DNA from: an uncultured virus (IMG/VR IMGVR_UViG_3300020195_000012)
Lineage: Duplodnaviria > Heunggongvirae > Uroviricota > Caudoviricetes
Strand: one strand, 5' to 3'
Virus record (IMG/VR): IMGVR_UViG_3300020195_000012
Length of the DNA stretch: 64,000 nucleotides
Position 1 is the stretch's first letter. Every line of letters begins with the position of its first letter. Under the pieces are notes generated by a model, which saw only the letters and a list, made by a program, of their open reading frames with translations, did not search any database and was not told the origin of the DNA. Positions 4,327 to 58,910 of the stretch are shown piece after piece. The position numbers and the translations under genes were made by a program.

Positions 4327-4710
4327 TCAAGTCATTAAAGAAGAATTCTTTTGATCTTTAGGTTTATCCTGTGATTTCATCGATGTTTTAGATTTTTTGC
4401 GTTCGTAATTAATGTTAAGTTCGTCATATTTGTCCATGTCTTTCACGGACTTTTTCAGAACTTCCCAAACGTCCATTGCATCAATAGTCTTGATTGGCAC
4501 AGGTTGTTGTTGCCCACCGGCACCCCCGCCACCCATCGGATCGCCCATTGGGGGACCACCCATTCCACCACCCATTGGAGGAGGTGGGGGCATTCCGCCA
4601 CCAATAGGACCGGCACCGCCCGCACCACCTAAAGCGCCGCCGGGAGGGGGCGGTGGAGGAGGAGGAGGTGGAGCAGCTTCTGCCATCAATTCATACAAGG
4701 ATTTTCCCAT
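4327..4710 (-). CDS. Pro/Gly-rich low-complexity hypothetical protein
   Basis: 127-aa ORF co-oriented with neighbours and preceded by CTAGATA-N5-ATG. Confidence 0.7.
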   Translation of the reverse strand: MGKSLYELMAEAAPPPPPPPPPPGGALGGAGGAGPIGGGMPPPPPMGGGMGGPPMGDPMGGGGAGGQQQPVPIKTIDAMDVWEVLKKSVKDMDKYDELNINYERKKSKTSMKSQDKPKDQKNSSLMT

Positions 4711-5060: not shown

Positions 5061-6503
5061 TTAATTCACTAAAGGCCAGTTGTCTATGGCACTGGCCTTG
5101 TAAACTTTAATCGTGTGCCCTTCTTTCTCTAACACTTTGATTCGTTTACGACTGTGCTTTTCTAGATAATCGTTGATCTTGAACACAAAATCATAATAAT
5201 TCAATTGTTCTTTATCATTTGCTACACGTAAACCACGCCCAAATCTTTGAATGATTTGATGGTCAGCCTGTCCAGAAGCGCAATTCAAAAGGTTGTGGAC
5301 AAAAACATCAATTCCAGTATTGAAAATTCCGGATGTAGCAATTGCTACCAAATTACCTTCTTCTTTTTTCAATCTGTTAATAATTTCTTTACGAGTTTCT
5401 ACAGTGTCTTTGCCGCGAACCCATAAAGCCCCAGGAATTCTATCCTGAAGTCTATCGCCATGTTCAATCCTTTCAACAATAATCAATGATCTGCCTTCTA
5501 TTTTTGTAACTAGCTTCCTAACCATTTCGTGAAAATATTCATTTTCTGCAATACCTCGTGTCACTGCGTCCAAATAAATATCATAAGGGATCATTGGTTC
5601 TTCAACTTCAAAGAACGAACAGACAGCATTTGACAAAATGTTTCGCTCTTGGAGTTCTTTAGTTGTGATCTTCCCGTCCTCAGTGCAATGGGAAGCGAAT
5701 AAAGGGCCTATCCAGCCCTTAACTTCATACTTTTGGCTCTTATCCGTCCCACCGAACTTAAACGCAGTGGCGCTCATGCCAATGCGTACAGAAGCGTTTT
5801 TGAGTTTGTTGTAGATTTGTCTGGGCTTCTTACTCATCATTTCATGGATTTCATCCACAATCAACACTTTGATCTTAGGCAATAATGGTTCAAGTAGATG
5901 TGCGCTCTGAACAGTTGCGCAAGTAATTATATCTGGCTCTTTACGAGTACCATGAAATCTTCCAACACGTGGAATATTCCATTTACACAGTTCGTCGTAA
6001 TTTTGTTCCACTAACTGTTTTTTGTTGCCAAGAATCAAAACTGGTGTGTTTGGTGGCAATGCTTTGATAATTCCTATCAAAATATTCGTTTTTCCGCTAC
6101 CAGTGGGTGATGGGACTATGCCTCTACGATTCTTGATTGCTTGATTGATATAATCGACTTGATAATCTCGTAATACAACTGGAAATTTGTATGATGGATC
6201 ATTTAAGAAATTTTCATCAACAGATTCAATTTGAAAAGGAAATATCGTTCTGTGATCTTCAAACTTGTAAACGGAACCAATATGTTTTAGAGCAGCTTTT
6301 ACTTCTGGCAAAAGACCTGTTAGAAATCTCCCGCTTTCCTTCTTGAAGAAATCAGTATATCCATCCCATTTACGTTGTTTGAAACTTGGAGAATGAAAAT
6401 ACCCTCTTTCTTTAAATCTCAATGCTTTCCATAACAGATTTTTTACATCTTCATTTTTCGATATGAACCAAGAGTAATTATTTTCAATTTTTAATATATC
6501 CAT
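5061..6503 (-). CDS. SF2 DNA helicase, UvsW-like
   Basis: LRDYQ, PTGSGKT, DEIH, SAT, GID and QRFGRGLR motifs. Confidence 0.9.
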   Translation of the reverse strand: MDILKIENNYSWFISKNEDVKNLLWKALRFKERGYFHSPSFKQRKWDGYTDFFKKESGRFLTGLLPEVKAALKHIGSVYKFEDHRTIFPFQIESVDENFLNDPSYKFPVVLRDYQVDYINQAIKNRRGIVPSPTGSGKTNILIGIIKALPPNTPVLILGNKKQLVEQNYDELCKWNIPRVGRFHGTRKEPDIITCATVQSAHLLEPLLPKIKVLIVDEIHEMMSKKPRQIYNKLKNASVRIGMSATAFKFGGTDKSQKYEVKGWIGPLFASHCTEDGKITTKELQERNILSNAVCSFFEVEEPMIPYDIYLDAVTRGIAENEYFHEMVRKLVTKIEGRSLIIVERIEHGDRLQDRIPGALWVRGKDTVETRKEIINRLKKEEGNLVAIATSGIFNTGIDVFVHNLLNCASGQADHQIIQRFGRGLRVANDKEQLNYYDFVFKINDYLEKHSRKRIKVLEKEGHTIKVYKASAIDNWPLVN

Positions 6504-6535
6504 AGGACAATATTATAACATCAATGTAACAGATG

Positions 6536-7123
6536 TCAATTGACAATTTTGAAAAATCTATTTGGTGGCATGTGCGGAGCAACAATCTTCGACATAAGAA
6601 CTTCTGTTCCTGGCACTGTGAATACAATCACCCAACTTTTACGTGATTTGTTCATGCTGCAAGACATACCGACTTCGTTGAAATATTGTTCTATTATCTT
6701 ATTTCCCTCTTGACCAAAAGATTGAGTTCTTAGGCAAGCGTTCTTGTGATTTCTTCCTGTGAGACAGCCACTATCTCCATACCAAACTGATATTGCTAAT
6801 GACCTTAATTGATCCAGCCATGCCATAGTTATCTCTTTTTTGCCACTCGGATAACATAAATCTCTCAATTCTCCAAACACGGGATCAGAAAATGATCTCC
6901 ACGTACAAGTTGTTTTGTATTGATACCAAGGCGTACTACTTTCGTAAGCAGATAATTCTGATGCTTTACTATTGAGCCAGTCCATGTGACTGACACTATG
7001 TCGCATACAAAAGTACGAACTCTTTCTTCCTTTGCAAAGATATCCGTTACCTAGCAAAGTCCCTAACACAATTTGTCGATGATCATCATTTTGAAATGGC
7101 ATCTTACCGTTCCGAAAAAACAA
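6536..7123 (-). CDS. Free-standing two-motif LAGLIDADG (I-SceI-like) protein with substituted catalytic aspartates
   Basis: QIVLGTLLGNG and LAISVWYGDSG match the LLGDG and WYMDDG motifs. Start may be the ATG at 7102. Confidence 0.8.
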   Translation of the reverse strand: MFFRNGKMPFQNDDHRQIVLGTLLGNGYLCKGRKSSYFCMRHSVSHMDWLNSKASELSAYESSTPWYQYKTTCTWRSFSDPVFGELRDLCYPSGKKEITMAWLDQLRSLAISVWYGDSGCLTGRNHKNACLRTQSFGQEGNKIIEQYFNEVGMSCSMNKSRKSWVIVFTVPGTEVLMSKIVAPHMPPNRFFKIVN

Positions 7124-7158
7124 GTATAACTGTTATATATATCGTTCTAGAAACTAAA

Positions 7159-7394
7159 TTCTAGTCTGAATAATCAACCACCTATTCTTCGCCAATAGGC
7201 TTTCAATGGATTGATTATTACCAGAACTACAGAAAAAGCAAGTAATCTGCGAGTGACCGCAAGGTTATAGCAGATAGGAGCCTTGCCGCAAGGCCATGCA
7301 GGGCAACACATTAAAGGTCAACCTCCGATGAGGGTTAAGGTTGATGCTTGTTGTCCTAGCGAACTTTCAAGGTAAGATTTTCTAACTTTGAAAG
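7159..7394 (+). ncRNA. Putative structured non-coding RNA of unknown class
   Basis: ORF-free region with consecutive stems: AATAATCAA/TTGATTATT, CCTATT/AATAGG, ATCTGC/GCAGAT enclosing TGACC-GCAA-GGTTA, GCC-GCAA-GGC, TCAACCT/AGGTTGA, CTTTCAAGGT/ACTTTGAAAG. G-U pairs and GNRA loops favour the + strand. Confidence 0.65.
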
Positions 7395-7519
7395 AACGGT
7401 ATATCCTTCAATTTTATGATGAAAAATTAGTATTTAATTAGATTTATTTTGACTCTTTACAAAGGTTTTTATTAACTACTATATACCCTGTACAATCAGT
7501 TTAAATTCAACGGGACAAT

Positions 7520-8671
7520 ATGAGCAAATTCAAGAAATTCGGGGAGTTTGTCAAAGGTAAGGTCAAAGAACTTGACGTTACTGATGGCCTTGCCGGTAAA
7601 GATTATGATGGCCCACTATCCACAAAACCCATTCAAGAACCAACAAAGGGCAAGAAAGATAAGGCATTGCCATATAAAGCCACTGGCGAAGAAGAGGGTG
7701 GTGTTGTGTGGACCGCGCCTGATGATGGTAGCAAGAAAGGTTTGGCACAAAACGCCACCCCTGGAATGACACCAGCAACATCACCTTTAGGCAAGAAGGT
7801 GGATGATATGTCTAAGGCGAGACCAAAGCCAAAAAAATTGACGGCCGAACAGTTCATTGAGAACACTAAAGACCTGAGCAGCACTCAGTTTGTCAATTAT
7901 GTTCTTGAATCACATGGAGATGCGTCAATTTCTCCCGTGACTGACCTGTTCGGCAATGAATTCACTCCAGAACCACTCCAGACCATTCAGTACATGGCTG
8001 GATTGTTGATGGGCAATCATTATTATCTTGAAAAGTTTGTCCGAGAAGTCCGCCGACGTGGTGGAATGGATGCTTTGATGGACGAAATGTGTGATTGCGG
8101 TGGATATGATCTCATCGTTGACCACTTGGAAAATGAAGACTTGGGACAAGAACGTGCTGGGAAATTGGTCAAATCCATGAATGACAAATTCATGAAGAAC
8201 GTCAATATGTTTTCACCTGACGAAGATGAAGACGAAAAAGAATTAGGTGAATCGGTCGGTCCAGGGCTTGATCAAATGGGAATGGCTGGAATGCCTAACA
8301 TGGGTGGACAAGCCGCACCTGGGGCATCTGGCGGTAAACTTGGTGGTGGTAAAATTGGTGGTGGTGGCGTAGGTGGGTATCAAGCCAATCCTGACGATTC
8401 ATCAAGCGAACTTGATGGAAGAAACAAAACCGACAAGGGTATGGGCAGTCAAGGAGCTGGACGTAATCCATCAAATGCTGGTGGGGGTGGAATGCCAATG
8501 GGTGGTTCAACGCAGCCCAATTTTGGTGGCGGTGTCGTACCACCAATTGCCAAGAAGATGAGTGCTGGTGAGGATGTGAAATACGGTGGAGCTGGAAAAC
8601 ATCTCATTGATGAACTTACCAATTATCCAAGAGCTAAGACATACATGAAAGGTAAATGCATTGATTGCTAA
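7520..8671 (+). CDS. Hypothetical protein with Gly/Met-rich region; possible virion internal protein
   Basis: 383-aa ORF, N-terminus MSKFKKFGEF, CTATATA motif upstream, terminator downstream. Confidence 0.75.
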   Translation: MSKFKKFGEFVKGKVKELDVTDGLAGKDYDGPLSTKPIQEPTKGKKDKALPYKATGEEEGGVVWTAPDDGSKKGLAQNATPGMTPATSPLGKKVDDMSKARPKPKKLTAEQFIENTKDLSSTQFVNYVLESHGDASISPVTDLFGNEFTPEPLQTIQYMAGLLMGNHYYLEKFVREVRRRGGMDALMDEMCDCGGYDLIVDHLENEDLGQERAGKLVKSMNDKFMKNVNMFSPDEDEDEKELGESVGPGLDQMGMAGMPNMGGQAAPGASGGKLGGGKIGGGGVGGYQANPDDSSSELDGRNKTDKGMGSQGAGRNPSNAGGGGMPMGGSTQPNFGGGVVPPIAKKMSAGEDVKYGGAGKHLIDELTNYPRAKTYMKGKCIDC

Positions 8672-8672
8672 T

Positions 8673-8702
8673 AAAAACCCAACTCAATTGAGTTGGGTTT
8701 TT
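8673..8702. terminator. Bidirectional intrinsic terminator (perfect 30-bp palindrome)
   Basis: AAAAACCCAACTCAATTGAGTTGGGTTTTT between convergent genes. Confidence 0.85.
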
Positions 8703-8705
8703 TAT

Positions 8706-9551
8706 TTACCCTTTCCAGTTCAGTTTTAGATTTGACAATACCTCGTATGGTGATTTGCTGAATACATCGGCGTTGAATATATTTTTATCAATATTAGATT
8801 GTTTTGCCCAAGTGTTTAGCATTGAAATGAGCCATGGGAAATAAAGCATTACCTGTGGTGTATCAAAATTATCAGCCAAAACATTAAGACCGGATTGATA
8901 CCCAATAAACAATTTTGCTTTTTCTAAAATGTAAGTTACATTCATTGGACAAGAATCGTAGTATGATTTGACTTCACGACCTGATGATCGTAATATTTTT
9001 GCCAAAGGCTCACCAACATCACGATCATATTTTGCGCCAATCACAATAATAGGTAAATCAATTTCGTATTGTGAACACAACGTAAGTATAAAATTTTTCC
9101 ATTGTTCAACACTCCATACTGACCCGTTATCTTTCAAACTTCCAGACACATACACACAAATAAAATCTTCATATTCTAATGGACATTCAATCCTAGTAAC
9201 TGGAACACTCCATTCAACTTCATAGCCAGGATCGATATCCTCAAGCCTAACACCAGATTCTAACGGAACATTATATGCTACATATGCTCCAGCCAATTCA
9301 CTATCAAGTATATGACTAAGTTTTGGCGTGTGTTTTACAACATCATTATAAATAGACGAAGAAACAAGATGATAATTGATCTCACCGCACTTAGGAAGTA
9401 ACGAAAGAAAATTTTTCGCTCTGGTTTGTACAGGGTCTTTATTTACATGCAAAACATTTAAGTTTATCAAATCAAAATACGGCGAGAACTTTTGATAAAT
9501 CCAGAATATATCTCCAACACCTTGAGGTACACTAAGAGTAATTGTCTTCAT
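8706..9551 (-). CDS. Glycosyltransferase family 9-like (GT-B) protein
   Basis: N-terminal GVGDIF and C-terminal AKLFIGYQSGLNVLA..TPQVML, typical of heptosyltransferase-like enzymes. Confidence 0.7.
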   Translation of the reverse strand: MKTITLSVPQGVGDIFWIYQKFSPYFDLINLNVLHVNKDPVQTRAKNFLSLLPKCGEINYHLVSSSIYNDVVKHTPKLSHILDSELAGAYVAYNVPLESGVRLEDIDPGYEVEWSVPVTRIECPLEYEDFICVYVSGSLKDNGSVWSVEQWKNFILTLCSQYEIDLPIIVIGAKYDRDVGEPLAKILRSSGREVKSYYDSCPMNVTYILEKAKLFIGYQSGLNVLADNFDTPQVMLYFPWLISMLNTWAKQSNIDKNIFNADVFSKSPYEVLSNLKLNWKG

Positions 9552-11186: not shown

Positions 11187-11363
11187 GTTTGTGTACCATT
11201 AGAGTAAAAACCCTTCACTCAGTATACAAAATCACTTTTCTGAAGGCAACTCCAATTCTTCATCAGTTTCATCAAAATCTTCTTCGTTATCAAACTCGTC
11301 ATCTTCATGCATGCTATATTTTTCAGCCAGAACTGGATCGTCTGTTGTGAACTACCCACGCCC

Positions 11364-12593
11364 CTAAAGGGGCGGGGCTTCCGCTTCAACCAATAGCCCA
11401 CTCATAGCGGGTCTTACATCAGGGCAAGCGGCTATCCCTCTCGTTCCGAGAGTTCTAATTCTCAATCCTTCGTCCAATATGTTACAAGCAGCATTATGAT
11501 CTCGCTGGTTGTTCTCCCAACAGTTCCAACAACACCACTCTCGCTCAGTTGGCTTTAACTCACGATTACGCCAACCACACTTGTTACACAACTGAGATGA
11601 CGGAAACCAGCGACTAACTTTCACCAACTCACGACCATACCAAACTGCTTTGTACATTAACTTCTGCACAAACGAGTAGAAACCACAATCGGTAATGTCC
11701 TTATGACGTTTTCGCTCTTTCCATCGTGGCTCATCCCTATCGTCAGGCTTGGTCTTCGCAAGCATGTCACTCACGCCTAGGTCTTCGACAACAATAACTT
11801 GATTTTCGTTAATGATGCGACGACTCAACTTGTGCAAATGATCTTCACGCTTGTTGTGTGCCTTCAAGTACAACTTCGCTAAATTACGCTTCGCCTTCGT
11901 CCTCCCATTACCACCTTTCTCACTTCTCGATACTTCCTGATGCAACAACTTCAACCGTGCCGCAAACTGCTTCGCAGGACGAGGATTGACTTCAGTGTTA
12001 CCATTGCTGTCCACCATCCCATGCACGTTCAGGTCGTAAGCCACAATCTCTGCTCGTTCTGGCAACGGTTGAACATCACGCTCGGTGGTGATTGACACAT
12101 GATATTGTCCTGCCTTATTCTTACTGATCGTGGCAAACTGTATTTCACCTTCCACTTTGCGATGTTCAATAACAGGAATGCCTTCCAAAAACTTCGGCAT
12201 CACTAATTTGTCGTCAATGATGTAGATGTTTTGTTTGACACGGAAGGATTGTTTAGCATGTCGTTTCTTGAACCGTGGGAAACCTTTCTTGCCTTTGATC
12301 TTTTGCTTCACTTTGCGGAAGAAATTATCGTATGCGTTTTGCAAGCATTCGACTGCGTATTGCAAACTTTGGCTTCCGACTTCTTTGAGCCAAGGAAACG
12401 CTTGCTTGAGTGTTGGCAGTTCTTTTTCGTTGTCGCTTCGTTTGAGTGATTTGTTGTTTGTTTTGTATTCTTGTATCCTTTTATCGAGGAAGTGGTTGAA
12501 CACGAACCTGTTGCAACCGAAGTGTTTGGCGAGCAATACTTCTTGTGTGGTGGTTGGTGACAACCTCAGTTTGTAGGAATACAGGTATTTCAC
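11364..12593 (-). CDS. tnpB: RNA-guided endonuclease TnpB
   Basis: HTH YKLRLSPT..FGCNRFVFN, RuvC D (YDLN), E (VEDL), D (RDHNAA), zinc ribbon PSSQLCNKCG..CWNC. Confidence 0.95.
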   Translation of the reverse strand: MKYLYSYKLRLSPTTTQEVLLAKHFGCNRFVFNHFLDKRIQEYKTNNKSLKRSDNEKELPTLKQAFPWLKEVGSQSLQYAVECLQNAYDNFFRKVKQKIKGKKGFPRFKKRHAKQSFRVKQNIYIIDDKLVMPKFLEGIPVIEHRKVEGEIQFATISKNKAGQYHVSITTERDVQPLPERAEIVAYDLNVHGMVDSNGNTEVNPRPAKQFAARLKLLHQEVSRSEKGGNGRTKAKRNLAKLYLKAHNKREDHLHKLSRRIINENQVIVVEDLGVSDMLAKTKPDDRDEPRWKERKRHKDITDCGFYSFVQKLMYKAVWYGRELVKVSRWFPSSQLCNKCGWRNRELKPTEREWCCWNCWENNQRDHNAACNILDEGLRIRTLGTRGIAACPDVRPAMSGLLVEAEAPPL

Positions 12594-12739
12594 TTGTCTT
12601 CCTTGATGTATTTGACCATCAACTCACGGACAACTTCGGAGATTGTCTTGTAGTTGTTTTTGCACTTTGCTTGGAACTGTACGAAGAGTGTTGGTTGCAC
12701 TCGTACTACTACGTCTTTTGTTACATTTTCCTTATCCAT
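12590..12739 (-). CDS. Small ribbon-helix-helix protein
   Basis: MDKENVTKDVVVRVQPTLFVQFQAKC..TISEVVRELMVKYI has the beta-alpha-alpha RHH pattern; overlaps the tnpB start. Confidence 0.75.
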   Translation of the reverse strand: MDKENVTKDVVVRVQPTLFVQFQAKCKNNYKTISEVVRELMVKYIKEDK

Positions 12740-13134
12740 ACACTTATATAGTCCTGTCCCGACATTTTTGAGCAAGGACATCTGATTTTTATCCGAATTT
12801 CAGGGGACGGTGCGTTTGTCCTGTTTTAACCTTGCTTGATTTTGCTTCAAGAATGAGTTAATTTTTAGTGCATCGCCTTCATCCCCTACCCTAAAGGGCT
12901 GGCAAGCAGTCTCCCTCGCTCCGCTCGGTCGCTTTGCCTGCCAGCATCTACGATGTAGGGGCTTTCGGCTCCGAAGACTGGTAAAGAATGCATAATCATC
13001 ATTCATTTCTTCAGACATTTTCAGACCAGCAGCTTCCATTTCTCTCAGATAAACAATCTCTGCTTCTAGTCTGTCAGCAATCTCGCCTTAATGATTTCGC
13101 CCCGTCACCAAGCCATTTACAACGATAGATTCCA

Positions 13135-27839: not shown

Positions 27840-28751
27840 TCAGCCAAAATAGTTGGCTACCCTTTCATCCTGTATGTAGGGAACTCCTCTGTAATCTGGT
27901 CCCGAAGAGTGATTGGCAATCATAACTTTGTTATACTTTTGTGCCATCAGCCAAAACAACATACCCTCAATCAAAGAATGAGAAATTTTATGTTGCGGAT
28001 ACATCCATAGTCCATTAGGTAATTTATCTGCGCCTGCACGTTCCCCTTCAAAAGCATCATCACAACACAACAACATCAATCTCTGAACACCCCACTTGTA
28101 CGCAATCGCAATCGCTGCGCAAATAGGATTTCGATAATCATCCACAACAAATGACGGTCTTCCAGCAAGCCTGGATGAAAAAAACTTGTCTTCAACCGGA
28201 GCATACTTGTACACTACACCTAACCTAGATCGATAATTACGAACAAAATAAGGATTAGTACGTGATGATACAATGCACTTAGGATAATATGGATGTTTTG
28301 GCAACATCGATGTACATTCTTCATATGGATTATTAGCCAAAAACCAATCCATACGACGCAATCGCTTCCACTTAGCCAAACTGTGATTTGTGCCAATCAC
28401 TACAACATCATTAGGAATCTTTGATAAAAATTCTTGCTTCTTATCAAAATCAAATCCATCCGAAATAATAACCACATTAGGCGCATATATTAATTCAGCC
28501 TCAATTCCAGCCAAATTCATTGCAGTTATTGCTAATTCATTATCATAAAACAAGTTGTAATCAGAACTCTTTACAAGTTTGTTGATATCTTGTGGAGAAG
28601 AGGATGGACGAGTGAAATCACGTACCCACATACCAGATCGTGTTAAAAAATAACGATTCTGGTTTCTGTGAAGTTTTATGATCGGCTTATCAGATTGAAT
28701 TACATCCATCATTGATTCGATTAACGTTTGCACGGGAGAATTTGAAAACAC
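27840..28751 (-). CDS. DUF115/Maf(MptE)-like protein
   Basis: VVIISDGFDF..VVIGTNHSL..DWFLANNP..NPICAAIAIAYKWGVQRLMLLCCD resembles the MAF_flag10 pattern. Confidence 0.5.
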   Translation of the reverse strand: MFSNSPVQTLIESMMDVIQSDKPIIKLHRNQNRYFLTRSGMWVRDFTRPSSSPQDINKLVKSSDYNLFYDNELAITAMNLAGIEAELIYAPNVVIISDGFDFDKKQEFLSKIPNDVVVIGTNHSLAKWKRLRRMDWFLANNPYEECTSMLPKHPYYPKCIVSSRTNPYFVRNYRSRLGVVYKYAPVEDKFFSSRLAGRPSFVVDDYRNPICAAIAIAYKWGVQRLMLLCCDDAFEGERAGADKLPNGLWMYPQHKISHSLIEGMLFWLMAQKYNKVMIANHSSGPDYRGVPYIQDERVANYFG

Positions 28752-31522
28752 ATAGGAGATTCTGCATCTTCGCCCAGAATCTTTTCAAAGCCCCAATTAA
28801 CTTTCAACTCTCCAGACAAAGGTGGTCCTTCAAATACTAGAGGAACTTTCAAGTTATCTGGCATTTCAACACGAATTACACTTGGAATTGTGTGAAGAAT
28901 TTCAATCGTATCAGGTATTCCAACCACCTTGATAGATTCAGGAATTCCTGATGTATCAAATGATATTACTGGCATCTTTTCTGGGAATGACAATGATATC
29001 GACTTTGGTATGGCTGAAGTATCAAGCTTCAACTCAATGAATTCCGGCATACTGAATGATATCACACTTATTACAGTGTTCAGATCAGGCATTACTATGC
29101 GTATTTCATTAGGAAGTGGAATTTCCGGACCAATAATACGAATGTCTTTGAACTCTGGCATAATAACATTTATCACACTCGGAATCGTATGACTTATCGT
29201 AATTGGTGGAATCTCAGGCGCAACTATCTTGATCTCCGATGGAAAGCCAACCATATCATACTGCAATTCCACACTGTCGAAACTCGGATCGGGCATCTCT
29301 TCCAACCCAAATGATGCCTGTTTCGCATTAAAGGCAACTGCACTTGGACAAGTAACCGAACACGAGCAATTTACTGTTGGTGGAGTTCCCCAATTAACAC
29401 TAATCGTTGGTGGAGTCGCAAACGAAATTGGTGCAAATGAAGGTGCGGGTCCGAAACTAATTGGTTCAAATGTTGGTGCAGGTCCAAATTCAATTGGTTC
29501 AAATGTCGGTGTAGGACCAAAATCAATAAGTTCAAATGATGGCGCAGGACCGAAATCAATCAATGCAAATGACGGTGCAGGACCAAATTCAATCAAACTT
29601 GGAATATCAACAGGACCAAACGAAATTGGCGCAAATGAAGGCGCTGGTCCAAAATCAATCAATGCAAATGACGGTGCAGGACCAAATTCAATTGGATCAA
29701 ACGTTGGCACAGGTCCGAAACTGATTACCGCGAATGACGGTGCTGGACCAAAACTAATTGCTGCAAATACTGGCGTCGGAGCAAAACTAATTGCTGCAAA
29801 TGTTGGAACAGGACCAAAACTAATTGCTGCAAATGACGGTGCTGGACCAAAACTAATTGTACTTGGTACACTTACTGGACCAAAATTAATTGTACTAGGG
29901 ACACTTATTGGACCGAAACTAATTGGGGCAAATGAAGGTGCTGGTCCAAAATCAATTAATGCAAATGATGGTGCTGGACCAAAATTAATCAAACTTGGAA
30001 TACTTACTGGACCGAAACTAATTAATGCAAATGATGGTGCTGGACCAAAATTAATCAAACTTGGAATACTTACTGGACCGAAACTAATTGGTGCAAATGA
30101 TGGCGCAGGTCCAAAATCAATCAAACTTGGAATACTTACTGGACCGAAACTAATTGGTGCAAATGATGGCGCAGGTCCAAAATTAATAAGTATTGGTATA
30201 CTCACTGGACCGAATATAATTGTATCAGGTATACTCACTGGACCGAATCCGATTGGTCCAAACGATGGAGCAGGACCGAATCCGATTGGTCCGAATGACG
30301 GAGCAGGACCGAAAGTAACCATACTAGGGACACTTACAGGTCCGAAATTAATTGTACTTGGGATGCTCAATGGTCCAAAAGTAACTATGCTTGGAAAACT
30401 CACTGGTCCGAACATAATAATGCTAGGAATACTCAATGGTCCAAAACTAATCAAACTAGGCAAGCTTATTGGACCAAATCCGATTGGACCAAATGACGGA
30501 ACATTTATAAACGTTATAAAACTTGGAATGTCAAGTAATGGCGTAAATAGAATTATTGACGGTATACTAATTGGTCCGAAATCAATAAAACTTGGAAAAC
30601 TAATACTTGGAAATGTTATGTCTATCAGAGACGGAATAATAGCCAATATTGGATTCAGGTCAATACAAGGGAAAACAATCGGTGGAATTACAATATCCGC
30701 AGACGGAATAATTGTCGGAGGAAACGTAAATGGCGGAATCGCTGGGAATCGCAATGTTGGCACAGTAAATGGAACTGTCTGGACATTCGATTGCGGTTGA
30801 TTTACTTCTTCTCTTGCTATTGGAGTCTGAATAATTTGACATTTTTGATTCGTAACCGTTACAACTGGATCAACCAATGCATTTGGTGCATAAGTGTGAG
30901 TTCCAGAAATCAACGTACTACTTTGCCCATCTCCAAACTGAACAAGAACTGATCCGAAATTGCCTTGCAAATTAACAAAGTATTGTGCAATAGTTCCTGT
31001 ACTTGGGTCAGACGACAGAACATTGAAATCAAATTCTACGTCAGGACAAGCAAAATCATCAAAAATCAAAGGCTCATCAAACAAATTTCTTATTCGCCAA
31101 TCAAGCGTTTCTTGAACGGTTGTGAAATTCTCACCAATAAATCCTTCAATTTTAAGAACCGCAGATACGATTTGATTATGATGCTCTGCAATTACAAAGC
31201 CACGAATCCATGTTCCAGCTTGATTTGATTGTGTGTCACGTCCTCCGATATTACGCAAACAACGTTTTAATTTGAATATCTTGCCATTTATATCTTTCTC
31301 TACAGCATCATAATACAAAAGTTCACCCTCAATAGTGGCGAACCCATTCTCTCCCCAAATCTCTGGCTCGTCAGCATCAACAGGCGCAATCAATATCTCT
31401 TCAGCAAATGCCGTATTATTAGCAGCAAGAACACTTTCTGTGGTGTTATACACCAAGTAAAGCGTTCTATCACCATCGATCCCAGTGGGATATTCGATAT
31501 TTGGCGGAAAACCTACGCTCAA
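28721..31522 (-). CDS. Tail-associated protein with PKD-like domain and long 11-aa repeat region
   Basis: N-terminal domain shared with the two neighbouring PKD genes, FGDG..HTY PKD motif, 32 FGP-type repeats. Confidence 0.8.
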   Translation of the reverse strand: MSVGFPPNIEYPTGIDGDRTLYLVYNTTESVLAANNTAFAEEILIAPVDADEPEIWGENGFATIEGELLYYDAVEKDINGKIFKLKRCLRNIGGRDTQSNQAGTWIRGFVIAEHHNQIVSAVLKIEGFIGENFTTVQETLDWRIRNLFDEPLIFDDFACPDVEFDFNVLSSDPSTGTIAQYFVNLQGNFGSVLVQFGDGQSSTLISGTHTYAPNALVDPVVTVTNQKCQIIQTPIAREEVNQPQSNVQTVPFTVPTLRFPAIPPFTFPPTIIPSADIVIPPIVFPCIDLNPILAIIPSLIDITFPSISFPSFIDFGPISIPSIILFTPLLDIPSFITFINVPSFGPIGFGPISLPSLISFGPLSIPSIIMFGPVSFPSIVTFGPLSIPSTINFGPVSVPSMVTFGPAPSFGPIGFGPAPSFGPIGFGPVSIPDTIIFGPVSIPILINFGPAPSFAPISFGPVSIPSLIDFGPAPSFAPISFGPVSIPSLINFGPAPSFALISFGPVSIPSLINFGPAPSFALIDFGPAPSFAPISFGPISVPSTINFGPVSVPSTISFGPAPSFAAISFGPVPTFAAISFAPTPVFAAISFGPAPSFAVISFGPVPTFDPIEFGPAPSFALIDFGPAPSFAPISFGPVDIPSLIEFGPAPSFALIDFGPAPSFELIDFGPTPTFEPIEFGPAPTFEPISFGPAPSFAPISFATPPTISVNWGTPPTVNCSCSVTCPSAVAFNAKQASFGLEEMPDPSFDSVELQYDMVGFPSEIKIVAPEIPPITISHTIPSVINVIMPEFKDIRIIGPEIPLPNEIRIVMPDLNTVISVISFSMPEFIELKLDTSAIPKSISLSFPEKMPVISFDTSGIPESIKVVGIPDTIEILHTIPSVIRVEMPDNLKVPLVFEGPPLSGELKVNWGFEKILGEDAESPMCFQILPCKR
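29423..30478 (-). repeat. 32 tandem 33-bp/11-aa coding repeats (FGPAPSFAxIS and FGPVSIPSxIN types)
   Basis: Counted directly in the translation. Confidence 0.92.
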
Positions 31523-50288: not shown

Positions 50289-53200
50289 ATGGCAGATATG
50301 CAATTAGACTCTTACGGACGCTTGACACCAATTTCCACCGAGGAATTGATCAAAGGCATGGATTCCAAGACTAAGACCACTACTCGTGCTGATCTTGAGA
50401 GTTCAGGTACGTTCCATGATCATAAAAGTCCTGCTAGTAAATTATCAGCATTAGCTGACAAGTCTGGTGACAACAAGAAGTTTTTCGAAGAGCAAATCAA
50501 ACCGCTAATTCCGATGTTCGTCAAGGAATTCGAAGTAAAAGAGAATCAGCAGTATCTTGAAGAAATGACTGGTTTCTTGAAAGAACTAGCCGAGAAGCGT
50601 GAAAAATATCTTGCTGCCAAGAAGGACAAGGGTGGTAGTTCCAAGAAAGAACCTGCTATTCCTGATCTTGCAGGGAACTTAGAGAAAGCATTAAAGGACA
50701 GTTCTGGAAAAGACATTTGGACTAATGGGCGGGCACGTGCGTTAGATCACTTCATGCACGAAGCGACTACTGGACATAGTTTACACGTTCATGATTATAC
50801 TGCTCAGATACTTTTGATATCTATTGCCAAAGATGTTAAGCATATTGGCATGATGATGGCACAAGCCTCTGGGGACAAAATATCAAATTCCGCTCGTGAT
50901 ATTGTTGGTGATTTTGAAATCAAAATACCAGAACAAATGAAAAGCGATCAAAAGATCGATAAAGCCGCACGCGGTACACGCGAGATGGGTTTGCGTGGAA
51001 TTAAAGGTGGTGGCTTTTCATCGACAAGTGGTGTGCCTTGGTGGTTTGATCGTCGAAAAATCAAACCAGAGATGGGAACTCCAGCAGAAGCAGCTGCATC
51101 GTCTGAACTTACTGTTCCCGATAGTAGAGTGGTTGGTGATGACGGCGGAGCAGCATTAAGTAGAGCTGACAAGAAAAGAGAAAAAGCCAAAGCCCGTGAA
51201 GCCGCTGCTCTTGCTGCTGGCGATGCTGCTATGATTGACAATGGAGTGGTCGGTGATGGTGGAGAAGCATTAAATGAAGTTCAAAAGAAAAAAGAAACAA
51301 GTACAAGGAAGGATAGGGCTGCTGCAAAAAAAAGACTGAGATCAGATGATTCAACATACTCATTGACAGAATCCTTACGATATAATTCGTCAGGACTAAG
51401 ACAAACTCGTCCACAATTAATCAGCCTTGGTAAAGAGATTGCAAAGTCTGTAAAAAGAGGAGGTCTTGGTAAAGACCCGGTTGTTGTAGAAAACAAACTT
51501 GAAATGATGACGAAAGCCATCGTCGGAATGAATGACTTGTCCAAGTCCGAACGAAGGTTAGTGGAAAAGAAGCTTGAAGAACTTATTAAAATTCAAAAAG
51601 ACCCAACTAAAGGCAAAAAAGAATTTGACGCGAAAGTTGCGGAATTGGCTCTTCTTGGTGAAAGAAGTTCTAAAATAGCCGAAAAGAAACGTGAAAAAGA
51701 AGTACGTGATTCCAGAATCAAAGAGATTGCAGACAAAGGACGTACTTTTATTGAGTACGCACAAATGCTTGCTCCAAGTAGAGCAGGAATAGGAACTAAA
51801 TTTGATCCAATGGCAGAAGCTGCGAGAGTTCGTGATGAAACTCACGCATGGACGCAAGGCATTCACGAACAAATGTCTCAAAGTTTCGGCATGAGAGGAA
51901 CAATGCTGGATCGTGGAGACCATGTAGGACCAGGAGATCAATATCGAAAAGCAACAGAAGGACTCAAAGGATTTTTTGAAGAAGCAAATGATCTTGCTAC
52001 CGGAACTATCAGCAAAGGCGTTCTCGGAGGTGAAGCATACTCGCGTGGAGGTGGTGGATATGGTAGTGGGACTACCTTAAAAGGAGCAACAGGTAAAGAA
52101 GTTGGTGGGATGTCATCTTTTGACGTCACTGGACAAAAGACCGACAAAATACAAAAAGTCCTTCTCAAAAATACACAACGTGGCGTTACATCACTAAGCC
52201 GTTGGGTTTCACTCAGTAGACAAGGTCTTCAACTTGGAACTATGATCGGTGCTGATGCAGAACATACAGCAGAAGAACTAACTGATTGGCATCTTCAGAT
52301 GGGAATGACCGTCGATCAAACATCCCAATACTCTAGAGACTTACAGACAGTCAGTAAAGTAACTGGCGTTACAGGCGATAAACTACTTGAAGCTGCAAAG
52401 AATGGTCGTTCGCTGGCAGACAGTATGCGAAGTGCTGGTACATTGACGAGTGAGGCAGCGAAGAACTTGACTCAGTTTTCAGCAGCAGCATCTCGACGTG
52501 GAACTGACAAGATTGTTCAGCCTTTAATTGATGCTTTGAGTAGTACAGTCAATTTGTTTGATAGTGCTGATCCTGCTACATTTGCGTTGGCGATGCGTTC
52601 TGCGCAAATAGGTGGTGGACCAAAACTAATGACTTCTTTGCAAGCAGGAACTATACCACAAGACCCGAAACAAATGAAGGCATTTGCTCAAGGTTTACGT
52701 GGTGTGATGATGCAAATGACGGGTGGTCGTGAACTCAATCAAATTGGTCCAGAAGAATTAGCGCAATTGAATTTGGCTGCAAAGAGTGCATATGGTAAGC
52801 AACTTAAAGAAATGGAAATGGGTGCTGATACTTTTGAAGAAGGCAGTATGTCTGTAGCCGAAAAGCTTGAAAAGATAGAAGCCACAATCAAAAAAGGAAA
52901 TTTAACAGGTAAAGAACTTGAAGATTTAAACATTCAAGCAAATGCTTTGCTTGCTACACAACACACAGAAGATACGAATAATGCTCTTCGTAATCTTAAT
53001 AGTATTACTGCCGAGATGAAGGGTGGAAAAACATTCGATCAAGCGACAAAGACAGTAAGTGATCGAATTAATTATGTTAATCCAGATACTAAACTTCGTG
53101 AAAATATCAATCCCCAACAACAACTTGACAAAGTTATTGCAGGAATTGAAGCCAGTGCAAACAAATTAGAGGGACCAAGAGCGGAAGATCAAAAGCAACG

Positions 53201-56200
53201 CTTACTTGCTCGTGCGGCTGAGTTCAAAGAACGAAAAACTACAATTGGTAGTGATCCAAAACAATTTGGATTGTTACTCAAGGACATGGATGATTTAATT
53301 CAAGCCAATCAAGTATTTGAGAAGCAATATCAACTGGATCAGAGTACGTTTCAATTACGCAATCAAGAACGTGTTCAACGTGAATTTTTTGAGGATGAAA
53401 TTCGCAAGGACTTGTTGTGGATGATGGCTTGGTCGCCACCCAATGCATCTTTGGCTAATATTGCTATTGGTATCGCTGCTGGATTTGCTGGAATGCTTGA
53501 AATACTAATCAAAATACTATTGGCATTTGTCGGATTTTCTATACTTGGTAAAGCAATAGGAGCTTTAGCAAGCGTATTAGGCGGTCTTGGTTCAGTTATA
53601 GCTCCCAGCGCACTGGGAAGTGCTGCGGCTTTTCTAGGTGGACCTTTGTTAGTAGCCGGTGTTGGAGGTGCTGTTGTTGTTGGCGTTGGTCAATACCTTT
53701 CATCAAAATCCAAAAAAAAAGAGGAAGAACAATGGAAAGACCTTGGTACAGAACACTCAGCTGTTCGAGACTCTTTTCAACCTGTAATTGACGCAGAAAA
53801 AGACCCAAAGCGCAAAGCGCTATTAGAAAAAAAACTACAGCTCGAACTAGATGTTAAAGCAGAACGAAAAAATCTGGAAGTATGGAAAACCAGAAGTGAT
53901 GATCCGGAAACAATGGCACAAAGAACTGCTGAACGACTAGCGAATCTTTTTAGAAGGCGTGAGCGTGATTATGCAGTTCCAAATGGGCAATTAGAAATGG
54001 ATGCCAACGTAGAAAAAGAACGAAATGAAGCTGTAATGGCAATACAAGCACGATTAGATGAATCTATCAAAGAATTAAAAGCATACAAACCAGACAATCG
54101 ACAAGCAGTAAAAGGGTTGGGTTCTGATACCGCACAAATATTTGAGGTAAATGCAAATCTCAATGCTGAAATAGCAAAACGTGGTCAAGAACTCAACCGT
54201 GCAGAACAAAGCGCGGCACTTGAAGTAGTCGGGGTTTGGAGTGCAAGGAGCGAGCAGGAGAAAATTAGTGCGCGCTTCTATTGGAGAAATTGGAGAAAAG
54301 CAAATAACCTGGCTCATCGATCACATGAGGATGCGGACGTTGATTACATATTGTTCAAACAGTTCATCACAGAACAAATGGCAGCCAGACGTAATGATCC
54401 ATCTAATCCTATCAATGTAGCACAGTCAAGTCTGAATTCAGCAGAACAAACACATAGCGATGTTGTTTGGGGAGGAGGAGAAAATATTGGAAATAAACTA
54501 GCGGAAATGATGCCCGCCATTGATCCAAAACTTCAAGAAACACTGAAACGACATCTTACACATATAGGCGCTCTACGAATCGACCGTGGAGAAACCTGGG
54601 ACAAAGGACAAGATGTTATTGATTTGTTCAAGAAAATGAAAAAAGAATTAGGTGGATTTGAAATTGAAACCCACGTAAAAGAAGCTTTGCCAATGTTAGA
54701 AACCGCATCTTCCCACCAAAAAGATTTACGCACATGGGAAAGCACTCTCAAGGCACACCAGGACAAAATACGAAATTATGAAGACGCAATTAAAAATGCG
54801 ATAAACAATCCAGAATTACTAAAATCGATTAATGAGAAATGGGCTAAGGATGAATACCAACCACTTGATGAATTGAAGAGATTGATTGAAGGAACAAAAG
54901 AGATGGCAGCTATCACACAAAGATCAATGGCTGCGATCACGCCAGCCGCAGCAGCACCACCAGTGCCAGGAGCAGTTGTACCACCAGTGCCAGGAGCAGT
55001 TGTACCACCAGTGCCAGGAGCAGTTGTACCACCAGTGCCAGGAGCAGTTGTACCACCAGTGCCAGGAGCAGTTGTACCACCACCATCGCCACCAACACCA
55101 TTTATTGGATTGTTTGATAATTTGCTTCCTATGATTATATCTCAAGCAGACAAAGCAAAAATAGAGGCAGATAAAAAAACAGCAGAAGCAGCAGCGGCCG
55201 CCAAAAAAGCCGAAGGAGAAGGACTCTCTATTTTCGGCATGAAGCTATCTGATATGGTAATCAAGATAAAAGAAGCCAATATCGAATCTGCTAATATCAA
55301 TAATGCAATAATAAAGGGATTAAGTGGAATACAAATGCCACTATCTCCAATGCCCGCATATGGAACAGCACCACCCGGAACACCCGGACAGTCCTACGTC
55401 ATGCCACTTAGCAACAATGCAGTTCCAACGCCAAATCAACCTACTGCACCAAATGCCCCATCAGAACCTCGTAATTTTGTACAAAAAGGGTTTGATTGGA
55501 GCAAAGATGTAGTCATTGATACTCTAGCTCCAGCTGGATTTCAAAAAACTCTTGAGTCATTAAAATCAATTGAACAACAAGGAAGTAATCAAGGTAATAT
55601 ACCATCATTAACATCTAGACCTGGAGAGGGCGGCAAAATCAGTCATGGGGCTATGATTGATGAAATGAACGCAGGCGAACGTATTGTACTTGCTAAAAAA
55701 CTTAATGTTTCTGAAGAAAACTTGAAAAAAATGTCGACATTAGACATTTACAAAAGAATGTCTGTCGCTCCGGATTTATCTACAGAAGCAACTAAATTTC
55801 GTTCTAAAATTGAAGAAAAATTCATTCCAAAACATGAAAAAATCGAACACAAAGACTTGTGGAACAAAATTGATCCAAAAACTCAAGAATACATATTGCA
55901 AAATGCAGAAATGACCAAAGAAGAAGCATTATCAATGCCAACAGAAAAATTCAAGAGCAAAATTGAAAGTTTCAATCCGGAAGGGGTAATGGGGCAAGGA
56001 GAGGCAGGTAAAAAAAGAGAGAAAAAAGTAAAAGAATTACAAGCAGACGTTCGCACAATTACTGCACCCAAACCTGTACCTGCAACAGACAAAAATTCAA
56101 TTGCAGTAGCAGGAGGAACAGCACGTGAAACCGGAACGGCAAAAGCTGGACAAATCGGAAGTGTTGCTACACCAACTGACAGAGTATCTGGAAAAGATAT

Positions 56201-57620: not shown

Positions 57621-58910
57621 ATGAAATCACATGAAGGTATGTTAATAGAAAAATACGGGTACAGATTCAAGGAATTCATTTGCTTCAAAGAAGGCAAAGA
57701 AAATCTTGAACAACCCCACATTATCAGTTCTGATTCACCCATGAAGCTACCTGCTGGAATCACTCGCATCATCGAGGCGTTCAAAAAAAGCAAAGAAGTG
57801 CCAATTGGAAAGGAAGTCGATTCCAAGTCAGGAGGTGAAAAGGACGTCACCCTCAAGTCAAAGAAAATCTTCATCGTAGGCGAGGCTGTACGTGACTTCC
57901 TGCTCGGACACACACCAAGAACCTACGATATCGCTACAGATGCTCACCCAGATGAAGTCGAACGCATCATCAAACACGCCAAACCACCCATCCAAGTTGT
58001 CAAAAAAGATAGCAAAAATGGCGTCGTCAAAGTGTCTATTGATGGCGAAACTTATAACATCGAAACCATGAAACTACCAGGCGACGACGAAGGAAATATA
58101 ACTTTTACAACCAACCCAAAAGAAGATAGCGAACGTAAAGACGTAACAATAAACTCACTGTACTACGAACCATCCAGTAATAAGATTTACGACTATACAG
58201 GCGGGCTACGACACCTGAAAGATGGAACCATCAAAATGATCGGCAAAGCCAAAGACCGAATCAAGAAAGATGGAATGAGTAAATTCCGCTACGCAAGAAT
58301 GCTCAACAAAGTCCCTAATGCAAAAATGCACGACGACGACAAAGAAGCAATGTCAGACGAAATAGATTCAGAATTGCCACCAGAAAAAATCCGAGACGAG
58401 TTCTGGCAGGGCATGGAAGACCTGCATACCAACGCAGCCAAATACCTGAAAACCTATAATGAAATGGGTCTGCTCAAACAAGTATTCCCAGGACTAGAAT
58501 TGACCTTGGACTTCCCAGAATGCAAAACTTGTAAATCCAAGCCACTCGTTCTTGCAAGCCTGCTCAAGAATAACAAGCCAGTCAAATTGGTTGAGAAATT
58601 ACGTGATCTCAAATACACAGACCGTGACATTAGAGATGCAGTGTTCTTAATCAATCTGTTACTGTTCAAGCCAGACTACATCTCAGACTTCAAAACTGAA
58701 ATGACCAAGACAAGTCTAACCAAGCGACAAATAATGGATTGGGCTAAGATCAATAACTTGGACACGAACATGATTGAAAAATTCTTGACACACCAAATTA
58801 GCACTGACCCCATGGATGTGCATGGAAGAGAAGGACTTGTCGGAAATGATCTAAAGGACCGAGTTCGTAGAATGGAAGCAATGGCATTTATGAAAGCTAT
58901 GCGGACCTGA
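57621..58910 (+). CDS. CCA-adding/poly(A) polymerase class II nucleotidyltransferase homologue with degenerate motifs
   Basis: FIVGEAVRDFLLGHTPRTYDIATDAHP, EDSERKDVTINSL..DYTGG, EKIRDEF. Confidence 0.85.
   Translation: MKSHEGMLIEKYGYRFKEFICFKEGKENLEQPHIISSDSPMKLPAGITRIIEAFKKSKEVPIGKEVDSKSGGEKDVTLKSKKIFIVGEAVRDFLLGHTPRTYDIATDAHPDEVERIIKHAKPPIQVVKKDSKNGVVKVSIDGETYNIETMKLPGDDEGNITFTTNPKEDSERKDVTINSLYYEPSSNKIYDYTGGLRHLKDGTIKMIGKAKDRIKKDGMSKFRYARMLNKVPNAKMHDDDKEAMSDEIDSELPPEKIRDEFWQGMEDLHTNAAKYLKTYNEMGLLKQVFPGLELTLDFPECKTCKSKPLVLASLLKNNKPVKLVEKLRDLKYTDRDIRDAVFLINLLLFKPDYISDFKTEMTKTSLTKRQIMDWAKINNLDTNMIEKFLTHQISTDPMDVHGREGLVGNDLKDRVRRMEAMAFMKAMRT

What the first reader, a model, noticed from the sequence alone, without database searches (positions are those of the whole stretch)
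7159..7394. Unassigned multi-stem ncRNA candidate
Seen: long hairpin 7159-7234 with inner stem CCTATT/AATAGG; stem 7245-7275 capped by a GCAA tetraloop; a second GCAA loop at 7288-7291; nested GGGCAACA/TGTTGTCC and TCAACCT/AGGTTGA stems; final stem 7364-7394. Mismatches read as G-U only on the + strand, as expected for selection on RNA structure. An AT-rich TATATATA lies just upstream. I do not recognise it as tRNA, tmRNA, SRP, 6S or RNase P RNA.
Basis: partly seen in the sequence, partly recalled or inferred. Interest (0 to 1): 0.7.

Follow-up and report, generated by a model that had tools for sequence, protein, structure and literature searches.

The report
Orphan TnpB guide-RNA scaffold in phage
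The folded RNA candidate is real, but it is best read as the guide-RNA scaffold and right end of a TnpB-type jumping gene that has lost its protein gene and is scattered in many near-identical copies through huge phages of microbial mats.

Summary
The + strand folds far better than shuffles (z -5.45) and better than the - strand, and no Rfam, tRNA or tmRNA model matches. Only 7222-7400 (179 nt) is conserved. This core recurs at 97-100% identity in at least 7 unrelated flank contexts in mat-phage contigs, twice on single contigs. Its 3' boundary is sharp (GAACGGT). A syntenic relative lacks it, so it is an insertion.

A covariance model of the core found four diverged copies in a related 436-kb phage contig. 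With them, 33 of 54 pairs change on both sides. Three of the four sit on the 3' end of a tnpB gene or its remnants; one reaches NCBIfam's RNA-guided TnpB cut-off. The core's unpaired 5' segment is the remnant of the TnpB C-terminal codons.

The element is therefore an omega-RNA scaffold and right end of a TnpB element. GG at both junctions, no inverted repeats, and a serine-recombinase partner in a relative make it IS607-like. The window copy is an orphan: no cognate tnpB lies in the 64 kb. Two mat RNA libraries hold the core. It is a new member of a known kind. The ribozyme and splicing ideas found no support.

The parts
7222..7400 (+). Conserved 179-nt core: omega-RNA scaffold and right end of a TnpB-type element
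   Evidence: It is 97-100% identical in 12 metagenome loci and 3 IMG/VR loci whose flanks are unrelated. CM hits to four diverged copies in G006, three of them at tnpB 3' ends.
7222..7244 (+). Unpaired 5' segment, a remnant of the TnpB C-terminal codons. It runs into the invariant AAGUAAUC (7240-7247).
   Evidence: It translates to QNYRKSK*. It aligns to the stretch of L184 that encodes ...HADVNGSLNIGRKVI of the TnpB ORF. AAGTA and TC are invariant in the MAFFT alignment.
7245..7275 (+). Hairpin H1, with GCAA loop at 7259-7262
   Evidence: Fold. The upper stem is replaced by other sequence in all G006 copies. The basal pairs covary (UA/CG/GU/AU, GC/GU/CG, CG/GC/UG) even in a structure-blind alignment.
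7276..7294 (+). Invariant junction AUAGGAGC running into hairpin H2 (7280-7294, contains GCAA 7288-7291)
   Evidence: Nearly invariant across all 8 aligned copies. One pair covaries, CG in 6 and AU in 2.
7298..7360 (+). Long hairpin H3: two stacked helices and an apical 2-pair stem
   Evidence: Fold. 14 of its 21 pairs in the two main helices change on both sides in alignment A2. G-U becomes G-C at 7317/7345 in L142.
7364..7394 (+). Hairpin H4, the subterminal hairpin of the right end
   Evidence: Fold. 9 of 13 pairs change on both sides. G-U becomes A-U in L142. An RNA-library variant has another hairpin here (CCAGA...UCUGG), like G006 copy L183.
7395..7400 (+). Terminal AACGGU. The element ends at 7400/7401.
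   Evidence: All 7 mat contexts that reach the 3' end lose similarity right after GAACGGT. 3 of 4 G006 copies end in GGAACGGT.
7401..7420 (+). Flank that would be the guide if the RNA is used by a TnpB (inferred; length assumed)
   Evidence: This is inference from the family's architecture (passages of 10.1101/2023.03.14.532601). No intrinsic terminator lies after 7400 on the + strand.
7140..7221 (+). Variable 5' part peculiar to this copy: small hairpin 7147-7164, long hairpin 7165-7225, and 7141-7146, which can pair with 7395-7400
   Evidence: Fold. It is not shared with the other mat copies. A DNA-run contig carries a ~85% similar version whose small hairpin has three compensated pairs, CUAAUU/AAUUAG.

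Best explanation
Window 7222-7400 is the omega-RNA (guide-RNA) scaffold and right end of a TnpB-carrying insertion sequence of the IS607/IS605 kind. It is present here as an orphan that has lost tnpB.

In intact relatives the RNA is transcribed on the tnpB strand. It starts inside the last codons of tnpB, folds into four hairpins, and ends at the transposon boundary. The next ~16-20 bases of flank would serve as the guide. With that guide, TnpB cuts the empty site in a genome lacking the insertion, and repair copies the element back in.

The sister copies in mat phages are protein-less mini-elements: a left end with a sigma-70-type promoter, a few leftover TnpB codons, and the right end. They have spread, or been copied, into many intergenic sites of huge phages.

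Shown here:
- the fold, the strand and the covariation;
- multi-copy spread with sharp ends;
- linkage of diverged homologues to tnpB.

Inferred, not shown:
- that the RNA runs on into the flank;
- that GGGT is the adjacent motif;
- that a TnpB encoded elsewhere still uses this copy.
For: 1. Linkage to tnpB. A CM built from the core found 4 copies in G006, a 436-kb contig of a helicase relative, at 63, 42, 41 and 28 bits. A second model scored them 78-132 bits.
   - The L184 copy overlaps the end of an ORF that reaches NCBIfam guided_TnpB (101.6 bits, cut-off 100) and Pfam OrfB_IS605 and Cas12f1-like TNB.
   - That ORF reads ...HADVNGSLNIGRKVIGDK... across the start of the RNA.
   - L183 and L185 carry decayed or internally deleted tnpB directly upstream.

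2. Leftover codons. The core's 5' segment translates to QNYRKSK*. The longer sister form reads ...ATDQNYRKSK.

3. Structure. In the 8-sequence alignment 33 of 54 pairs change on both sides and 94.5% of cells pair, against 76.8% in shuffles. 0 of 500 shuffles reach any of the five measures. Slid controls give at most 48% pairing and at most 16 such pairs. A structure-blind alignment keeps the covarying H1 base and H2.

4. Transposon-like spread. There are at least 7 flank contexts at 97-100% identity, with two copies on each of two contigs. The core unitig has depth 119.6 against about 22 for the flanks in a DNA run. The syntenic relative L159 has only a 114-nt spacer there.

5. Ends.
   - GGGT stands before the left end in 6 of 6 copies that have one.
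   - ...GAACGGT closes 7 of 7 mat copies.
   - No inverted repeats or duplications were seen at the ends of the type B/C mini-elements.
   - This fits the GG junctions of IS607 (passages of PMC6188088).
   - An intact 400-aa relative of the TnpB (41% identity) follows a serine recombinase gene in G008.

6. Precedent. Protein-less elements that keep an omega-RNA are described (passages of 10.1101/2023.03.14.532601).

7. RNA libraries. Two RNA libraries of one mat study hold the core as short contigs.
Against: - No cognate tnpB or tnpA lies in the 64-kb window or in about 45 kb of sister loci. The window's own TnpB (11364-12593) is another clade: 24% identity over 116 aa, E 0.006.
- The tnpB linkage rests on one phage contig, G006. 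Its best tnpB is in two frames and the other two are wrecks. The fourth copy, L181, has none.
- The window copy lacks the left end and the promoter of its sisters.
- Among the near-identical mat copies alone, 0 of 54 pairs show a double change.
- The covariation count was made on an alignment fitted to the model.
- No omega-RNA model in Rfam matched.
- The intact G008 TnpB has no detectable copy of this RNA after it.
- Contigs from RNA libraries cannot exclude DNA carry-over and show no ends or strand.
- No guide use, TAM or cleavage was tested.
Confidence: 0.8

Rival explanations
1. It is a dead transposon end only. The hairpins and end motifs matter, or mattered, as DNA sites for the transposase, and the RNA has no present role in this phage.
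For: No cognate tnpB or tnpA lies in the window or the sister loci. The tnpB copies in G006 are broken. The window copy lacks the sister copies' promoter.
Against: 33 of 54 pairs covary across copies that share little sequence in the helices. That points to selection on an RNA or single-strand fold, not on protein-binding repeats. The core is better kept than the left part in the most diverged mat copy: 97% in L142, against about 92% over that copy's whole cassette. The -35 and -10 hexamers of the sister copies are kept while the spacer varies. RNA libraries hold the core.
Confidence: 0.1
2. It is a promoter-plus-structured-leader cassette, a large PeSL-like regulatory module. It heads blocks of phage genes and works in cis, by mRNA stabilisation or anti-termination, independently of TnpB.
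For: The sister copies carry TTGAAA-17-TATAAT, 11 of 12 matches. In 4 of 6 contexts a co-oriented ORF starts within about 120 nt downstream. No terminator follows the core in the window or L135. Two direct copies bracket a 4.9-kb gene block on one contig. PeSLs are repeated promoter and stem-loop cassettes (passages of PMC2839356).
Against: In 2 of 6 contexts the next gene is convergent. The window's downstream gene is 120 nt away behind an AT-rich spacer. Diverged homologues sit on tnpB 3' ends, not in front of genes. The stem-loops are not terminators.
Confidence: 0.06
3. It is a new free-standing ncRNA or ribozyme, or a group I intron relative tied to the neighbouring LAGLIDADG endonuclease.
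For: It has several stems, GNRA loops and no Rfam match. A LAGLIDADG gene abuts it and an HNH gene abuts copy L139.
Against: The orthologous LAGLIDADG gene in L159 sits at the same place without the RNA. No split host gene exists. There was no Intron_gpI match even at E<=10. The element carries a promoter in its sister copies, and its homologues are tied to tnpB.
Confidence: 0.03

Closest known systems
TnpB omega-RNA (reRNA) of IS200/IS605/IS607 elements
   Same: A structured RNA of about 180 nt on the tnpB strand. It begins in the last codons of tnpB and ends exactly at the transposon's right end, with variable flank after it (passages of 10.1101/2023.03.14.532601).
   Different: The sequence and the four-hairpin fold match no Rfam model. 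The window copy has no tnpB. Use of a guide is untested.
PATE-like protein-less IS605-family elements that keep an omega-RNA
   Same: The sister copies are 236-348 nt elements with a left end, a right end and no gene. They are multi-copy and presumably depend on proteins encoded elsewhere (for the concept).
   Different: They live in huge phages and carry a strong sigma-70-type promoter. The junctions look IS607-like (GG) rather than like hairpin-guided IS200/IS605 ends. The window copy keeps the right end only.
IS607 family (serine-recombinase TnpA plus TnpB)
   Same: GG at both junctions. No terminal inverted repeats or target duplications in the mini-elements. An intact relative of the TnpB follows a resolvase-type gene (PMC6188088 passages).
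   Different: No serine recombinase was found next to any copy of this RNA. The window copy has a 6-8 bp complementarity between its two ends.
PeSL promoter-early stem-loop cassettes of T4-type phages
   Same: Repeated intergenic units with a sigma-70-like promoter and folded sequence, sitting between small phage genes (PMC2839356 passages).
   Different: PeSLs are about 100 bp with one terminator-like stem-loop. This unit is 236-348 nt with four covarying hairpins, no terminator and a tnpB ancestry.
HEARO / IscB omega-RNA
   Same: A transposon-borne guide-RNA scaffold of similar size.
   Different: No match in the Rfam scans. That Rfam holds a HEARO model is my recollection. In that family the guide is at the 5' end, upstream of iscB, whereas here the variable flank is at the 3' end.

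Membership tests
TnpB omega-RNA | Encoded on the tnpB strand, within or downstream of the 3' end of tnpB | tested here: met
   Met at family level. 3 of 4 diverged copies in G006 lie on a tnpB or its remnants. It is not met for the window copy itself, which has only leftover codons.
TnpB omega-RNA | The scaffold ends at the transposon right end, and unrelated flank (the guide) follows | tested here: met
   Similarity stops after GAACGGT in 7 of 7 mat contexts. That the flank is transcribed as a guide is not shown.
TnpB omega-RNA | Conserved secondary structure with covariation | tested here: met
   33 of 54 pairs change on both sides; 0 of 500 shuffles reach this. The alignment is fitted to the model. 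H1 base and H2 are confirmed on a MAFFT alignment.
TnpB omega-RNA | Transcribed, bound by TnpB, and directs cleavage next to a TAM | not testable with these tools
   The only evidence is presence of the core in contigs of 2 RNA libraries of one study.
TnpB omega-RNA | Conserved motif (TAM) abutting the left end | tested here: inconclusive
   GGGT precedes the left end in 6 of 6 copies that have one. It could equally be the first bases of the element. The window copy has no such left end.
IS607 family | GG at the termini and target; no terminal inverted repeats; no target duplication | tested here: met
   Junctions read ..GGG|T.. and ..CGG|T.. in the mini-elements, and no repeats were seen. The feature list comes from passages of PMC6188088.
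IS607 family | Serine-recombinase tnpA in the element | tested here: not met
   None was found beside any RNA copy held. One was found only beside a 41%-identical TnpB in G008.
Rfam families (all 4227), tRNA, tmRNA | A match to the model | tested here: not met
Group I intron with homing endonuclease | Interrupts a gene, has the intron core, and the endonuclease is linked to it | tested here: not met
   There are no exons and no Intron_gpI match at E<=10. The orthologous endonuclease is present without the RNA in L159.
PeSL cassettes | A sigma-70-like promoter plus a terminator-type stem-loop of about 100 bp between genes | tested here: not met
   The promoter is present in the sister copies but not found in the window copy. 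No terminator follows. The unit is three times larger.

The most novel reading that the evidence does not exclude
The protein-less, self-promoted copies are not relics. Each would make a guide RNA against the 'empty' version of its own site. One TnpB, encoded somewhere in the ~0.45-Mb genome or in a co-infecting phage, would then drive many loci at once into rival phages: an RNA-guided homing network among huge phages. Alternatively, the copies have been taken over as RNA-guided regulators.
Probability: 0.15. Interest if true: 0.75.

Novelty: new member of a known kind. Interest (0 to 1): 0.45.

Why it matters
It turns an 'unassigned RNA' into a recognisable thing. The result is a previously uncatalogued omega-RNA scaffold with a supported four-hairpin fold.

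It also shows that TnpB-type elements, and their protein-less derivatives, are actively copied between loci of huge phages. Such scaffolds are raw material for compact RNA-guided nucleases.

Phage populations with frequent co-infection are a natural place to test whether guide-RNA-only elements spread by homing.

Tried and rejected
**Searches for relatives that found nothing**
- Phage GenBank collection, DNA searches: no match.
- Pattern CCGCAAGG..CCGCAAGG: about 6500 unrelated hits. None of the first 100 of the 123 loci fetched matched the CM; the other 23 were not searched.
- 19-mer of the 5' segment: only chance coding hits besides the known contigs.
- 22-mer in species genomes: only DnaK coding sequence of Bacteroidales.
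- Patterns for the window's 5' hairpin and for the sister 5' domain: nothing new.
- Terminase-based search for an empty site: only the same three contigs.
- CM searches of 10 further relatives' records and of LR756511.1: no copy. The best other scores were 15.5 bits (G008, R1) and 14.5 bits (G013, R2).

**Ideas tested and dropped**
- Group I intron or endonuclease linkage, DGR repeats, and coding potential. The 11-codon and 53-codon frames are broken by indels in variants.
- A closing helix formed by the RNA's two ends. It holds in the window's form only.
- boxA-like and hammerhead-like strings seen by eye, not pursued.
- PeSL-like leader: this was my working reading until.

**Reads**
- The flanks 6000-7219 and 7401-9000 had no cover in the RNA-library contigs. 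Per the tool this proves nothing.

**Records out of reach**
- The metagenome records behind L135-L141 could not be searched whole.

Full report
**Setting.** The window is part of a very large environmental tailed phage.
- It has 40.6% G+C and carries SbcCD, a helicase, a DNA polymerase, thymidylate synthase and baseplate genes.
- Sister contigs of 24-29 kb are rated 5-6% complete.
- Helicase relatives are contigs of 175-436 kb.
- The finding lies in the 396-nt gap between a LAGLIDADG endonuclease gene (6536-7123, - strand; PF03161, E 8e-23) and an unknown 383-aa gene (7520-8671, + strand).

- The + strand of 7140-7410 folds to -87.5 kcal/mol, against -59.8 +/- 5.1 for shuffles (z -5.45, 0 of 200). 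The - strand reaches -74.8 (z -3.0).
- Five of the 54 core pairs are G-U, so they are readable on the + strand only.
- ARAGORN finds nothing.
- Rfam finds nothing at gathering score and only noise at E<=10, both here and in a sister copy.

**What is conserved.** An exact 26-mer found three IMG/VR contigs and a 20-mer found 13 metagenome loci, 12 of them true.
- Only 7222-7400 (179 nt) is shared, at 97-100% identity. The flanks on both sides are unrelated.
- There are 8 flank contexts. Two are partial and could be halves of one locus, so at least 7 are distinct.
- One 100.7-kb contig and one 11.4-kb contig each hold two copies.
- In a DNA run the core is a collapsed unitig of depth 119.6, against about 22 for the window's flanks. 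The tool warns that this is not a copy number.
- Several contigs break inside the core.
- The 3' boundary is the same everywhere: similarity ends after GAACGGT.
- The other copies share a further upstream part that the window lacks. It has a left end starting GGGT-GCTGAACAG, a promoter TTGAAA-17-TATAAT (11 of 12 matches), a small hairpin and an optional 49-nt piece.
- The window instead has its own 5' part, 7140-7221.
- One-base indels among the copies exclude a conserved reading frame.

**It is an insertion, and the endonuclease is a bystander.** In the syntenic relative L159 the helicase is 64% identical, the endonuclease 63% and the 383-aa gene 35%. There the gap between the endonuclease and the 383-aa gene is 114 nt and holds no copy.

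**The turning point.** The near-identical copies give no covariation: 0 of 54 pairs change on both sides, and there are two G-U to Watson-Crick changes. I built a covariance model from them and ran it over the whole records of five helicase relatives.
- One relative, G006 (436 kb, 85% complete), holds four diverged copies at 63, 42, 41 and 28 bits. A second model scores them 78-132 bits.
- With these copies included, 33 of 54 pairs change on both sides and 94.5% of cells pair, against 76.8% in shuffles. 0 of 500 shuffles reach any of the five measures. Slid controls stay at or below 48%.
- That alignment is fitted to the model. However, a plain MAFFT alignment with RNAalifold still recovers the covarying base of H1 and H2.
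- The separate folds of L183 and L184 show the same four hairpins. In all five sequences the + strand is 9-14 kcal/mol better than the - strand.
- The strings AAGUAAUC before H1, GAUAGGAGC before H2, and GGAACGGU at the end are the conserved unpaired parts.

**What the diverged copies sit on.**
- The L184 copy overlaps the last 110 nt of an ORF. That ORF reaches NCBIfam 'RNA-guided endonuclease TnpB' (101.6 bits, cut-off 100) and Pfam OrfB_IS605 and Cas12f1-like TNB. It reads ...HADVNGSLNIGRKVIGDK... across the start of the RNA. Its N-terminal part lies in another frame.
- L183 and L185 have decayed or internally deleted tnpB directly upstream.
- L181 has none. It follows a terminase-like ORF, as mat copy L142 does, and it starts GGGT-TGATGAACAGTTAGC, like the mat left end.
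- The window's unpaired 5' segment reads QNYRKSK*. The longer sister form reads ...ATDQNYRKSK. I read both as leftovers of the TnpB tail; this is inference from the alignment.

**Reading.** An RNA that starts in the end of tnpB, is bounded by the right end and is followed by variable flank matches the description of the TnpB omega-RNA. Protein-less elements that keep such RNAs, for use by a TnpB encoded elsewhere, are also described. I saw both points in passages of 10.1101/2023.03.14.532601. The names ISDra2 and the 2021 discovery papers are my recollection only.
- The junctions carry GG on both sides, and I saw no inverted repeats or duplications.
- IS607 elements insert at GG, keep GG at their termini, and make neither repeats nor duplications (passages of PMC6188088).
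- An intact 400-aa TnpB, 41% identical to that of L184, follows a resolvase-type gene in G008. No copy of this RNA is detectable after it.
- I therefore file the element as IS607-like, with the transposase link unproven.

**What is not shown.**
- No cognate tnpB or tnpA lies in the window or in the sister loci I hold.
- The window's own TnpB (11364-12593) belongs to another clade.
- Two RNA libraries of one mat study hold the core: a 152-nt contig identical to 7249-7400, and a 306-nt contig of a variant whose last hairpin resembles G006 copy L183. Contigs show neither strand nor ends, and DNA carry-over cannot be excluded.
- Whether the window copy is still used as a guide RNA is open. I put identity as a TnpB omega-RNA and right end at 0.8, and present activity in trans well below that.

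**Rivals.** Until I favoured a PeSL-like promoter-and-leader cassette (passages of PMC2839356).
- The features that suggested it were the promoter, the co-oriented neighbours in 4 of 6 contexts, and the lack of a terminator. All fit a transposon that relies on host transcription equally well.
- An orientation preference relative to the upstream gene is reported for the IscB-encoding relatives of these elements.
- Two earlier notes of this scan pointed to PeSLs for other genomes. I did not test them.
- Ribozyme, intron and free-standing sRNA readings have no positive support.

**Verdict.** This is a real structured RNA element and a new member of a known kind. It is of moderate interest for its fold, its spread in huge phages and its protein-less self-promoted copies.

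Noticed in passing
window 11347-12985 (- strand); L001 5227-5578: A second, unrelated TnpB element: a 409-aa TnpB at 11364-12593 (NCBIfam guided_TnpB 268 bits; Pfam HTH_OrfB_IS605, OrfB_IS605 and TNB). Both of its ends match a TnpB-less mini copy in the sister phage contig L001. A piece of its left end also lies beside the decayed tnpB in L183 (ORF 726-1079).
   Followed up: partly
window 6536-7123 (-); L159 3393-3962: A free-standing LAGLIDADG endonuclease gene sits just upstream of the helicase gene. It is kept at the same place (63% identity) in a relative that lacks the RNA, so the two are independent.
   Followed up: yes
L139 1729-2208: An HNH endonuclease gene (PF13391, PF01844) lies convergent to, and right after, another copy of the element. 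Mobile genes seem to gather in the same intergenic spots.
   Followed up: no
window 29419-30503: The 564-aa ORF 28721-30415 holds internal repeats of roughly 67-75% identity. They appeared as many off-diagonal matches when G001 was aligned to the window.
   Followed up: no
window 57621-58910: A tRNA nucleotidyltransferase-like gene (phrog_2244), although ARAGORN finds no tRNA gene in the 64 kb.
   Followed up: no
window 4327-4710 and 50289-57593: A 127-aa ORF with long proline and glycine runs, and a 2434-aa ORF with no Pfam match.
   Followed up: no
L185 2171-3124: The 436-kb relative encodes what looks by eye like an isoleucyl-tRNA synthetase next to one element copy. No family search was run on it.
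   Followed up: no
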